NCBI GenBank assembly: GCA_024679065.1
Contig: JAGIQG010000013.1
Span: 45,632,001-45,696,000 of the forward strand
Direction of reading: 5' to 3'
From: Sphyrna mokarran
Lineage: Eukaryota
Length of the DNA: 64,000 bases
This document shows positions 22,001 to 25,000 of the stretch, piece by piece. Position numbers: made by a program. Every line of letters begins with the position of its first letter. Position 1 is the stretch's first letter.

Positions 22001-25000
22001 TATCTGTGCGGGTTTCCTCCAGTGCTCCTGTTCCCTCCTAGAGTGCAAAGATGTGTGGGTTAAGTGGATTGGCCATGCTAAATTGCCCCTTAATGTCAGG
22101 AGGACTAGCGAGAGTAAATGCGTGGGTTAATAAGGATAGGACCAGAGTGGGATATGGCCTCCTTCTGCATTTTAGGGCTCTATGATTCTATGAGCCAACT
22201 TCTCTTCAGCTGCAAAAATAGGACTGAAAACTCCTAGGCTATTTGGTTTCTCGAAGATAAATCTAACCAATATCATTATTTGCAAAATATTTACAAACTT
22301 GAATAACACACTACAGTCCTTTGCATTATATTTCTTGAGGGTAAATCAGAATATAGAGAGAGAGACCATTATTGCAGAGTGTTGACGATCAAGTTGTGGA
22401 GGGATTTCTCTGGCCTCCCTGCAATGTGTTTCATGTGGCAGATGTTGAGATGTTCACTGGCGGTGGGATTTTCAGGTCCCACTGCTGTCAATAGAATTTT
22501 CCACTGAATCCACCCCACACCATCGGTAAAACCTGAGGTGGGGGTGTGCCATTGGTGGGATTGGAAGATTTTTTTGGCATGAACAGCCAGAGAATTCTAG
22601 CCATAGAAACAAAACCTGGACAGAATTTGTTTCATTCACTAGAAAGATGTTTCAGTCATGATTTCAAGTGTTTCTCATTCATAGGTTAGATCCAGTTTTG
22701 GCATTTGCCATTGAGCCTCTTGTACTTGTCTTGTAGTTAATAGTTGTTTAGTCTTTTGAAATGCAGATGTTGAACTCATGATTTTCAAGTTATTCTCTAA
22801 GCTCTTGTAATAGCCAATTTAACTATAAAGCTGCTCAAAGCAAGGTTATAAATATAATTAATTGCAAATCTGTATGGTTTTTTAAACATTCTCATCAATG
22901 CAGATTTGAGATAAACTTTAAATTTTGGGCTAACATATGGATATACTGAGAAACTCATTCTTTGCCTGCTTCTTTCAAATAATTTTTTTGTTAATAGATG
23001 GTAGGAAATATTGAATTACTATGAATTATTCGAAAGAAGCAGGCAAAGAATGAATATCTCAAAATGTCCATATGTTAGTCCAAAATTTAAAGTTTATCTC
23101 AAATCTACATTGATGAGAACATTTAAAAAAACCATACAAGATTTGCAATTAATTATATTTATAACCTTGCTTTGAGTGGCTTTATAGTTAAATTGGCTGT
23201 TACAAGGGCTTAGAGAATAACTTGAAAATCATGAGTTCAACATCTGCATTTCAAAAGACTAAGCAACTATTAACTACAAGACAAGTACAAACAAGAGGCT
23301 CAATGGCAAATGCCAAAACTGGATCTAACCTATGAATGAGAAACACTTGAAGTCATGACTGAAATATCTTTTTAGTGAAACAAATTCTGTACACGATTCC
23401 CAGTTGATGATTCTATTTTCATGTCTTTTAGCAATAAACATTCAAAATACATCTTTAACACATTATGCAAATTATATAATGTGTGATATGTTATTTATTA
23501 TGCATGTGCATTGATAACATAAACAATTTTTTGTATCAGATGCTACTTGGTAAATTTTTTTTCAGTGACTGCGTTTTATACTCTTCTCCAACAGTTTTGA
23601 ATAAATTGCATTGATACAGTGTCTTTAATTTGGAATTAAAATTTCCTTAGGCATTTAACAGATAAAAAGTAACTGCTGAGCAAAACAAAAAGAAAATATT
23701 TAATTAAATGGCAGGTTTGAAGGAAGAGGAAGAGGTTGAAAGGTACTAAAGTAGGTGTCTGACCTGCCCACTCAGAATTCTTCAGGTGACCTACAGTGGC
23801 TGCTAACCAAAGAAAATTTATTGGAGCCAGGAGGAACAGAAGTATTCCATTTCCCTCACCCTTGACAGTGCAGTCCTGATAATTATGCTTCTGCACCAGA
23901 ACCTGCCCTAAACTGCATCCCAAAACTTAGCTGAGGGCTGTTTCTGGTGTGGAAAGCAGTTGGAATTGAATTTTATCCAATGAAATAGGCTACTTGGAGA
24001 TAAAACTCAGTAATTTCCTACAACAATATATGTTTACCAATCAATATTGAGTCAGCCAGCATGCTATTAATTCCACTTCTAAAATTGAGGTGAATAACCC
24101 ATAGATAAAATTTTAATTTCCTTTCGTTTGTGATTCACAAGCTATGGAATTCAATTCATAGAAATATTTTTTAAAATGGCTTTCTTTAATTTAATTATGG
24201 ATCCTGAAGAGGGCAATTTTCAAAGTAGTAGATGGCAAGTTCCAGGTGATGACAAAATAATGGAATACCTGCATTTTTAAAGCAGGATTTTTTTAAAATT
24301 CTTATCAGTGATTCACTTAAAATGAAAATAAATTGGCATCACTAGCAGCAGCTCACAATTTTCACACTCTCAGGCCAGGAGAAATTAGGCTTAATACATC
24401 CAGAAAAGTAAGCTATTCTGACATACCAATGCTCCTTAATAGAATGCCTGAACCGAGACATCTCTTGCACACCCTAAGTGAGACAATAGTTGTGACATTT
24501 ACTGAAGAACATTGGAAGGTTTCTGCTGTGGCCCTACAGCAACAATTACCCCAGGGTATTACACATTTGAATTCCTTCAGTTGTCAGAGGGAAGATACTT
24601 TCATCTCATATATCTAAATTGATTCCAGGTCTCGGATAGGAAGAAGTGGAAAGACTTCCCACACTGTCATTCAGCAACCAATTAGTTTGAATCAATAACA
24701 GGTTATTTATTAAACCTAACATAACTTGTTTTAATCACAGTGACCAAATGCTTAGACTGAGGAGTAAGAAGGAAACCTGTGAACATTCGGAATGTGTGAA
24801 TAACACTGCTTTGTAAGTTCTGTAGGTCACATACTAATAGCAGTTCAATTACATGTTCAGGGATTGATAACTCTGTTCCAGATAAAACCAGCCCAGGTCA
24901 GCAGTGGGGTATAAATACAACGGTTGCTGGCAGTATAATGCAATTACCCCTATTATTGCTACAAAAAATCCATTCAAACTTCGGGGAAAACTCGTTTAGA

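What the first reader, a model, noticed from the sequence alone, without database searches (positions are those of the whole stretch)
22620..23390. ~770 bp near-perfect palindrome built from sequence that does not look like a transposon
Seen: two ~365 bp arms about 94-95% identical by manual count, a 39 bp spacer, no TSD that I could find, and no match to other repeats in the window. Known: long short-spacer palindromes are unstable (cruciforms) and, if transcribed, form long dsRNA that ADAR and Dicer act on. Inference: this is an uncatalogued foldback element, an old fold-back duplication, or a hairpin-RNA/endo-siRNA locus. Divergence between the arms argues against an assembly artefact.
Basis: partly seen in the sequence, partly recalled or inferred. 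Interest (0 to 1): 0.7.

Follow-up and report, generated by a model that had tools for sequence, protein, structure and literature searches.

The report
Long AT-rich palindrome, probably transposon fossil
A real 777-base hairpin-forming inverted repeat sits in non-coding, repeat-rich DNA and is most likely the decayed remnant of a non-coding cut-and-paste transposon, though a local inverted duplication cannot be excluded without the rest of the genome.

Summary
The arms are 22617-22984 and 23024-23393, with a 39-nt spacer. 345 of 364 aligned positions are identical (94.8%), with 16 transitions, 3 transversions and 4 indels. The strand folds far better than shuffles (z about -46 as RNA, -42 as DNA). 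The transition-rich divergence and unique flanks argue against an assembly artefact.

The arms occur nowhere else in the window. They encode nothing recognisable and reach no Rfam gathering score.

First, both arms start with CAG four bases inside the palindrome; TA follows on the right and GA on the left. Second, each arm carries two copies of a ~33-nt motif 120 nt apart, beyond chance (0 of 60 shuffles; 2 of 170 natural segments, both simple-sequence tracts).

This resembles the long inverted repeats with internal direct repeats of Tc1-type transposons. My best reading (0.5) is a fossil non-autonomous foldback-like DNA transposon. The main rival (0.3) is a local inverted duplication.

Copy number, orthologues and transcription could not be tested, because no eukaryotic collection was available. 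Interest is low to moderate.

The parts
22617..22984 (.). Left arm of the palindrome (368 nt, 31% G+C)
   Evidence: aligns to the reverse complement of 23024-23393 with 345 of 364 ungapped positions identical.
22985..23023 (.). Asymmetric central spacer (39 nt, AT-rich)
   Evidence: the sequence between the inner ends of the arms. It forms the loop in both folds.
23024..23393 (.). Right arm of the palindrome (370 nt)
22619..22623 (+). Candidate left terminus: GA (a possible decayed TA target duplication) followed by CAG
   Evidence: the left end matches the 16-nt terminal word of the right end with one mismatch, at the first base of the dinucleotide.
23387..23391 (-). Candidate right terminus: CTG followed by TA (read on the minus strand: TA then CAG)
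22645..22677 (+). Outer copy of the ~33-nt direct-repeat motif, left arm
   Evidence: (D4). Smith-Waterman score 34 against 19.65 +/- 2.29 for shuffles (0 of 60 reach it).
22765..22798 (+). Inner copy of the direct-repeat motif, left arm, 120 nt from the outer copy
   Evidence: The 21-nt cores of the two copies share 17 of 21 bases.
23212..23245 (-). Inner copy of the direct-repeat motif, right arm
   Evidence: the 21-nt core at 23225-23245 is identical to the left inner copy.
23337..23369 (-). Outer copy of the direct-repeat motif, right arm
   Evidence: the 21-nt core at 23349-23369 has 2 mismatches to the left outer copy.

Best explanation
The palindrome is the fossil of a non-autonomous, non-coding class II (cut-and-paste) transposon of the foldback or long-inverted-repeat type. 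It consists of two ~370-nt terminal inverted repeats and a 39-nt remnant of internal sequence. It possibly derives from a Tc1-type element whose long inverted repeats each carry two transposase-binding direct repeats (the 'IR/DR' layout). Shown: the palindrome itself, its CAG...CTG ends with TA on one side, the two direct repeats per arm, the AT-richness, the lack of coding capacity, and arm divergence of K2P about 0.055. Inferred: a transposase supplied in trans bound the repeated motif, cut at the CAG ends and inserted the element at a TA; both arms were identical at insertion and have since decayed neutrally. On this reading the element is now immobile. The 39-nt spacer plus 5% mismatch explain why it is tolerated despite its cruciform or hairpin potential. 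Any present-day activity (dsRNA if transcribed through) would be a by-product.
For: (1) The termini sit four bases inside the maximal palindrome. Both arms begin with CAG, the right end is followed by TA, and the left is preceded by GA, which is one substitution from TA. That TA plus CAG is the usual Tc1/pogo end is my recollection, not a tool result. (2) Each arm holds two copies of a ~33-nt motif with 120-nt spacing. The self-alignment score is 34 against 19.65 +/- 2.29 for dinucleotide shuffles, and 0 of 60 reach it. Among 170 natural 368-nt segments of the window, 2 reach 34, and both are simple-sequence tracts. The 21-nt core occurs with 4 or fewer mismatches only at the four sites inside the palindrome, on both strands of the 64 kb. 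(3) Tc1-family Bari elements have ~250-nt long inverted repeats containing 18-nt direct repeats that bind transposase. They give rise to MITEs made of those repeats, including a single-copy 467-bp 'LIR-3DR' MITE in D. yakuba (PMC4877112, passages read). (4) Other MITE-like traits are present. AT content is 69.6% against 60.6% for the window. No Pfam family is found in any ORF inside the palindrome; these ORFs were among the 150 and 146 scanned. (5) The divergence is transition-rich (16:3), as expected for neutral decay of two once-identical arms.
Against: No second copy, full or partial, exists in the 64-kb window. This only excludes a very abundant family. The 2-nt duplication is imperfect (GA against TA). 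With several superfamily signatures to choose from, a TA-CAG within ~10 nt of an arm end is only weak evidence; my rough estimate of chance is 0.05-0.1. The palindromic match continues weakly outside the proposed ends, with 5 of the next 8 positions paired (p about 0.04), which a sharp transposon boundary does not predict. The arms (368 nt) are longer than the ~250-nt inverted repeats described for Bari, and the outer direct repeat starts 25 nt from the end. At 777 nt the element exceeds the usual MITE size, given as 'generally smaller than 600 bp' in PMC4877112. No transposase remnant was found among the window ORFs scanned; only rve and RVT_1 were detected. The AT-rich composition continues into the right flank at 68-78%, as expected if the right arm were native local sequence.
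Confidence: 0.5

Rival explanations
1. A local inverted duplication that is not a mobile element. A replication template switch, or fold-back priming at a break, copied ~370 nt of unique local sequence in reverse orientation next to itself, leaving a 39-nt loop. The two arms have since diverged by about 5%.
For: The arms are single-copy in the window. There is no target-site duplication of 5 nt or more at symmetric boundaries. The right flank has the same AT-rich composition as the palindrome (68-78% against 69.6%), while the left flank is a G+C-richer old repeat that ends at about 22605. This fits a right arm that is native and a left arm that is the inserted copy. A second long inverted repeat of similar arm identity (93.5%) lies 7-9 kb away at 13658-14157 / 15289-15839, so inverted duplication may be a recurrent process in this region.
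Against: It does not explain the two ~33-nt direct repeats per arm or the CAG...CTG ends with TA. I could not identify junction microhomology that fits a template-switch model; this is my inspection of the sequences printed, not a formal test. By my recollection, fixed inverted duplications of unique sequence with short spacers are rarer in vertebrate genomes than palindromic non-autonomous transposons.
Confidence: 0.3
2. A functional hairpin-RNA locus (an endo-siRNA or miRNA precursor, or an ADAR-edited dsRNA), whatever its origin. It would be transcribed through both arms and processed by Dicer.
For: The + strand folds into a near-continuous stem of about 365 bp (-561 kcal/mol). The centre gives sub-threshold hits to long-hairpin miRNA models: MIR837 at 45.5 bits and mir-3914 at 36.4 bits. 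Palindromic MITEs are known to become miRNA genes, as with Made1 and hsa-mir-548 (PMC1784062, start of abstract seen in the listing).
Against: Both Rfam hits are far below gathering (117 and 97 bits), and one of the families is from plants. They reflect a generic hairpin. The 16 transitions show no bias to one strand's G:U-compatible changes (10 against 6, two-sided p=0.45), so nothing points to selection on an RNA stem. The arms match nothing else in the window that could be a target. No coding exon was recognised among the scanned frames: 150 of the window's 166 frames of 68 aa or more, and all 146 frames of 42-67 aa between 14000 and 32000. In mammals, canonical RNAi from long dsRNA is constrained by Dicer's adaptation to miRNAs (PMC11239679, start of abstract seen in the listing).
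Confidence: 0.07
3. An assembly or sequencing artefact, such as a chimeric fold-back read or a mis-joined haplotype.
For: Long-read library chimeras can create palindromes (my recollection). No read-level data were available to me.
Against: The arms differ at 19 positions, of which 16 are transitions, and by 4 indels. Artefactual fold-backs have near-identical arms, and long-read errors are mostly indels (my recollection). The palindrome is internal to the window, has a 39-nt asymmetric spacer, and has different, unique flanks. A divergence of 5% is far above what I would expect between haplotypes.
Confidence: 0.03

Closest known systems
Tc1-family elements with long inverted repeats containing direct repeats (IR/DR or 'LIR-3DR', e.g. 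Bari2/Bari3) and their MITE derivatives
   Same: Long inverted repeats carry repeated short motifs in the same orientation relative to each end. The derivatives are non-coding and AT-rich, consist of little more than the two repeats, and some are single-copy, such as the 467-bp Bari_Dyak_MITE (PMC4877112). The ends here are TA-adjacent and start with CAG.
   Different: The arms here are 368 nt against about 250 nt. There are two motif copies of ~33 nt against three of 18 nt. The outer copy starts 25 nt from the end. The TA is intact on one side only. No related transposase and no second copy was seen. Sequence similarity to any Tc1 element was not tested, because no transposon library was available.
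Mariner-derived vertebrate MITEs (galluhop short elements of birds; human Made1)
   Same: These are non-autonomous vertebrate elements of a few hundred bp with conserved inverted ends and a TA duplication (galluhop, 500-600 bp; PMC5556988, passages). Made1 is palindromic and yields miRNA hairpins (PMC1784062, start of abstract).
   Different: Those families have hundreds to thousands of copies and short terminal repeats with a non-palindromic interior (galluhop). Here almost the whole element is inverted repeat, and the copy number is unknown.
Drosophila Foldback (FB) elements
   Same: Very long inverted arms, a short or absent middle, and no coding capacity in most copies.
   Different: By my recollection, FB arms are built of tandem subrepeats and are flanked by a 9-bp duplication. 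Tandem Repeats Finder finds no array inside the arms, and there is no 9-bp duplication.
Human palindromic AT-rich repeats (PATRR8, 11, 17, 22)
   Same: Single-locus palindromes of several hundred bp that are not transposons. The centre is somewhat more AT-rich than the ends, and there is an AT-rich flank on one side (PMC4255720; profile).
   Different: PATRR8 alleles are 97-99% AT, and most have 98-100% arm identity with no spacer. Here AT is 69.6%, arm identity 94.8%, and there is a 39-nt spacer. Only the right flank is AT-rich.
hpRNA / endo-siRNA hairpin loci
   Same: A long inverted repeat able to form a perfect-enough dsRNA stem.
   Different: There is no evidence of transcription, small RNAs or a target, and no strand-specific preservation of pairing.

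Membership tests
Tc1/mariner non-autonomous element (IR/DR type) | TA target-site duplication flanking both ends | tested here: inconclusive
   There is TA at 23390-23391 but GA at 22619-22620. The two differ by one substitution, which is plausible at about 5% divergence but is not proof.
Tc1/mariner non-autonomous element (IR/DR type) | Terminal inverted repeats starting with CAG (motif recalled, not from a call) | tested here: met
   CAG at 22621-22623 and CTG at 23387-23389.
Tc1/mariner non-autonomous element (IR/DR type) | Direct repeats (transposase-binding sites) inside each long inverted repeat (PMC4877112) | tested here: met
   Two ~33-nt copies per arm, 120 nt apart. 0 of 60 shuffles and 2 of 170 natural segments (both simple-sequence tracts) reach the score. 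The motif is confined to the palindrome. Binding by a transposase was not tested.
Tc1/mariner non-autonomous element (IR/DR type) | Sequence-related autonomous partner encoding a DDE transposase | not testable with these tools
   No transposase domain was found among the 150 + 146 window ORFs scanned. The host genome and transposon libraries were not available.
MITE (general) | Amplified, dispersed copies in the genome | not testable with these tools
   There are 0 further copies in 64 kb, which excludes only very high copy number. No eukaryotic collection was available.
MITE (general) | Small size (generally <600 bp), AT-rich, no coding potential, conserved inverted ends (PMC4877112) | tested here: inconclusive
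   AT-rich (69.6%), non-coding and with inverted ends: these are met. The size of 777 nt lies above the usual limit.
Drosophila-type Foldback element | Arms composed of tandem subrepeats; 9-bp target duplication (recalled) | tested here: not met
   TRF finds no array within 22617-23393. There is no 9-bp duplication at the boundaries.
PATRR-type palindrome | Nearly perfect palindrome of several hundred bp; AT-rich centre with less AT-rich ends; AT-rich flank (PMC4255720) | tested here: not met
   Arm identity is 94.8% with a 39-nt spacer. AT is 69.6% overall, with 50-nt bins of 70-80% around the centre and 60-70% towards the ends. Only the right flank is AT-rich. PATRR8 alleles are 97-99% AT.
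Known miRNA / RNA family (Rfam) | Score at or above the family's gathering threshold | tested here: not met
   There are 0 matches at gathering in the whole window. The best sub-threshold hits are MIR837 at 45.5 against 117 bits and mir-3914 at 36.4 against 97 bits.
hpRNA / endo-siRNA locus | Transcription across both arms and 21-23-nt products | not testable with these tools
   No expression data were available. Only the folding potential is shown.

The most novel reading that the evidence does not exclude
The palindrome is a single-copy, evolutionarily maintained hairpin-RNA gene of a cartilaginous fish. A ~365-bp dsRNA stem would be transcribed in the germline and diced into endo-siRNAs. 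That would make it a vertebrate counterpart of Drosophila hpRNA loci, born from a foldback transposon or an inverted duplication.
Probability: 0.05. Interest if true: 0.65.

Novelty: new member of a known kind. Interest (0 to 1): 0.25.

Why it matters
If it is a foldback or IR/DR-type element, it adds a probably uncatalogued non-autonomous DNA-transposon family to a vertebrate lineage whose repeats are dominated by SINEs and LINEs. The motif pairs in its arms would point to the binding sites of a still unidentified transposase.

If it is instead a local inverted duplication, it is a dated example (K2P about 0.055 between the arms) of a long, short-spacer palindrome surviving in a vertebrate germline. 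Its spacer lies between two lengths tested with 320-bp inverted repeats: 12 bp stalled replication forks and 52 bp did not (PMC3300023). That makes it of modest interest for genome-stability work.

Either way it is a potential source of long dsRNA. None of this is surprising to a specialist without evidence of copy number, conservation or expression.

Tried and rejected
**Longer target-site duplications.** I scanned 45 x 50 boundary pairs for duplications of 2-11 nt.
- The only hits were asymmetric or chance-level. One is an exact 8-mer at 22606-22613 and 23377-23384, which lies inside the right arm. Another is an 8-of-10 match at 22590-22599 and 23406-23415. By my rough estimate about 1.5 such matches are expected by chance.

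**Empty-site test using a paralogue of the flank.**
- The left flank 22397-22603 has a diverged copy at 14488-14712 (E 9.2e-10).
- That homology fades at about 22605, before the palindrome, and the right flank has no paralogue. No empty site could therefore be reconstructed.

**Extra copies in the window.**
- The terminal 16-mer with up to 3 mismatches gives 4 matches against 2.13 expected. Two are the element's own ends.
- The 21-nt core of the direct-repeat motif gives no further sites.
- The whole arm gives none by blastn or nhmmer.

**Known RNA families and tRNA-derived origin.** Rfam at gathering and in E-value mode gave nothing at threshold. ARAGORN found 0 genes.

**Coding remnants.** Pfam was run on 150 of the 166 stop-to-stop frames of 68 aa or more.
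- I dropped 16 frames: 4007-4213-, 4008-4232+, 4033-4254+, 8038-8241+, 30127-30330-, 33290-33493-, 43337-43540-, 43808-44011+, 54318-54521+, 60820-61038+, 61840-62076+, 62156-62368+, 62523-62741-, 62534-62818+, 62865-63104-, 63424-63627-.
- Only rve (1 frame), RVT_1 (1 frame) and three marginal hits were found.
- Pfam on all 146 frames of 42-67 aa between 14000 and 32000 gave one marginal hit (MauE, E 0.0085).

**Vector, phage or prokaryote origin.** There was no match in plasmids or phages. A 36-nt exact word had 0 hits in genome contigs. These collections hold no eukaryotic genomes, so they say nothing about copy number in the host.

**Tandem subrepeats in the arms.** None were found.

**Strand-biased preservation of RNA pairing.** Rejected: 10 against 6, p=0.45.

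**Excess of transitions as a sign of an editing-like process.** Not significant against a 2:1 expectation (p=0.079).

**Literature.** The terms 'foldback' + 'transposable' + 'shark' returned 1 paper, a plant review. I found no description of such an element in sharks in that library.
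Full report
**What is there**

The window (64,000 nt, no N, 39% G+C) contains a genuine long palindrome at the stated place.
- The repeat finder gives three collinear inverted blocks: 152 nt at 97%, 107 nt at 91% with 39 nt between the arms, and 94 nt at 95%.
- A gapped alignment joins them into a left arm 22617-22984 (368 nt), a spacer 22985-23023 (39 nt) and a right arm 23024-23393 (370 nt).
- Of 364 ungapped columns, 345 are identical (94.8%). There are 19 substitutions (16 transitions, 3 transversions) and 4 indel events covering 10 columns. 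Identity is 92.2% if gap columns are counted.
- The K2P distance between the arms is 0.055.
- As a single strand the 811 nt around it fold into one nearly continuous stem. RNA gives -561.1 kcal/mol against -164.9 +/- 8.6 for shuffles; DNA gives -364.3 against -79.6 +/- 6.8. In each case 0 of 20 shuffles do as well.

**Not an artefact**

The differences between the arms are mainly transitions. The spacer is asymmetric. The two flanks are different, unique sequences. The structure lies in the middle of the window. Fold-back read chimeras would give near-identical arms, and haplotype mis-joins would not differ by 5%; both points are my recollection and inference.

**Surroundings**

I do not take this contig for human.
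- It carries at least nine copies of a ~200-250-nt SINE-like family, for example at 21901-22153, 25181-25433 and 4042-4238. From memory this family looks elasmobranch; I could not test that.
- It also carries a reverse-transcriptase fragment and an integrase fragment.
- No host coding exon was recognised. Pfam on 150 of the 166 stop-to-stop frames of 68 aa or more gave only rve, RVT_1 and three marginal hits. Pfam on all 146 frames of 42-67 aa between 14000 and 32000 gave one marginal hit.
- The left flank (22397-22603) is an old, G+C-richer repeat with a diverged copy at 14488-14712 (E 9.2e-10). Its homology fades at about 22605, before the palindrome.
- The right flank is unique and as AT-rich as the palindrome: 68-78% against 69.6%, with the window at 60.6%.

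**Copy number in reach**

The arm matches only itself and its mate in the window, by blastn with word 9 at E<=10 and by nhmmer --max. This excludes only a very abundant family; the SINE family, by contrast, appears nine times in the same window. Plasmid, phage and prokaryotic collections gave nothing, as expected. They do not address the host genome. No eukaryotic collection was available, and the protein-homology searches, metagenome contigs and viral contigs were closed. The decisive copy-number and orthology tests therefore stayed undone.

1. *Termini.* Four bases inside the maximal palindrome both arms start with CAG. On the right this is followed by TA. On the left it is preceded by GA, one substitution from TA. 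By my recollection TA plus CAG is the Tc1/pogo signature. Given the freedom to choose the boundary and the superfamily, I rate this as weak evidence. No duplication of 5 nt or more sits at symmetric boundaries.
2. *Internal direct repeats.* Each arm contains two copies of a ~33-nt motif 120 nt apart: 22645-22677 and 22765-22798, mirrored at 23337-23369 and 23212-23245.
   - The best off-diagonal self-alignment of the arm scores 34, against 19.65 +/- 2.29 for dinucleotide shuffles (maximum 25; 0 of 60 reach it).
   - Among 170 natural 368-nt segments of the window, 2 reach 34. Both are simple-sequence tracts.
   - The 21-nt core (17 of 21 shared between the copies) occurs with 4 or fewer mismatches only at these four sites in the whole window, on both strands.

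**Interpretation**

Long inverted repeats carrying repeated short motifs are the architecture of Tc1-family elements such as Bari2 and Bari3. These have ~250-nt repeats with 18-nt direct repeats that bind transposase. They give rise to non-coding derivatives made of little more than the repeats, including a single-copy 467-bp 'LIR-3DR' MITE in D. yakuba (PMC4877112, passages). Mariner-derived MITEs of 500-600 bp with TA duplications are also known in vertebrates (PMC5556988, passages).

My best explanation (0.5) is a fossil non-autonomous foldback-like DNA transposon. The specific Tc1-type assignment is less certain (about 0.3).

Against it:
- the imperfect TA;
- a weak continuation of the palindrome outside the proposed ends, with 5 of 8 positions paired (p about 0.04);
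- arms longer than in the described cases;
- a size above the usual MITE limit;
- no transposase remnant and no second copy in the window;
- compositional continuity with the right flank.

**Main rival (0.3): a local inverted duplication by template switching or fold-back priming**

This fits the single copy, the lack of a clear duplication and the AT-rich right flank. A second long inverted repeat of similar arm identity also lies nearby: 13658-14157 / 15289-15839, with 446 of 477 ungapped columns identical (93.5%) and a ~1.1-kb spacer. It does not explain the motif pairs or the CAG/TA ends.

**Hairpin-RNA reading (0.07 as a selected function)**

- No Rfam family reaches gathering. The two best sub-threshold hits, MIR837 at 45.5 against 117 bits and mir-3914 at 36.4 against 97 bits, are generic long-hairpin matches.
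- Of the 16 transitions, 10 would remain G:U pairs on the + strand and 6 on the - strand (p=0.45). Nothing suggests selection for one RNA stem.
- If read-through transcription occurs, a ~365-bp dsRNA would certainly form, and ADAR and Dicer could act on it. That is a consequence of the structure, not evidence of function.

**Stability**

Short-spacer inverted repeats are recombinogenic and counter-selected. A 320-bp Alu inverted repeat stalled replication with a 0- or 12-bp spacer but not with a 52-bp spacer (PMC3300023, passages citing Voineagu et al.). The 39-nt spacer and 5% mismatch here plausibly explain its persistence. The spacer could be the scar of a stabilising centre deletion; this is inference.

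Compared with human PATRRs it is far less AT-rich and less perfect, so it is not of that type. PATRR8 alleles are 97-99% AT and most have 98-100% arm identity (PMC4255720).

**Age (inference only)**

K2P of 0.055 means about 0.027 substitutions per site per arm. At an assumed 0.5-1 x 10^-9 per site per year, which I did not verify for this lineage, that is roughly 25-55 million years, provided there was no gene conversion between the arms.

**Verdict**

The feature is real and correctly described. It is most likely an ordinary kind of thing: a decayed long-inverted-repeat DNA transposon, or else an old inverted duplication. Its family membership cannot be settled without the host genome. I rate it a new member of a known kind, with interest 0.25.

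Noticed in passing
window 13658-14157 and 15289-15839: A second long inverted repeat. The arms are ~500-550 nt, with 446 of 477 ungapped columns identical (93.5%) and 97 gap columns, including a ~60-nt C-rich insertion in the right arm. The spacer is ~1.1 kb and contains a copy of the old repeat also found left of the palindrome (14488-14712). No target duplication was evident at the printed flanks. Its arm divergence is similar to that of the palindrome under study.
   Followed up: partly
window 21901-22153, 25181-25433, 4042-4238, 3302-3537, 45124-45356, 48806-48979, 51420-51663, 61931-62200, 62916-63156: A SINE-like family of ~200-250 nt with copies 70-81% identical to each other. ARAGORN finds no tRNA in them. 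From memory the sequence looks like an elasmobranch SINE; this was not tested. Copies at 3302-3537 and 4035-4275 form an inverted pair at 79%.
   Followed up: partly
window 31831-32256 and 33928-34361: A direct repeat of ~430 nt at 84.7% identity, 2.1 kb apart. It could be a pair of LTRs or a tandem segmental duplication.
   Followed up: no
window 49370-50654 (-) and 36399-36689 (-): Retroelement remnants. There are broken reverse-transcriptase frames (Pfam RVT_1, E 4.8e-05) and an integrase core fragment (Pfam rve, E 7.9e-08), seen. One search does not say which frames matched. I assign these frames by eye from the translations.
   Followed up: partly
window 22606-22613 and 22628-22635 (also 23377-23384): The 8 nt just outside the left arm are the exact reverse complement of an 8-mer 15 nt further in. 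This forms a small hairpin across the left boundary, and the same 8-mer recurs as a direct copy inside the right arm. It is unexplained and may be chance in AT-rich sequence.
   Followed up: partly
window 10023-10077: A (CA)n-type microsatellite. It is seen as a Thr-His repeat in the frame translation and as the top self-repeat segment.
   Followed up: no
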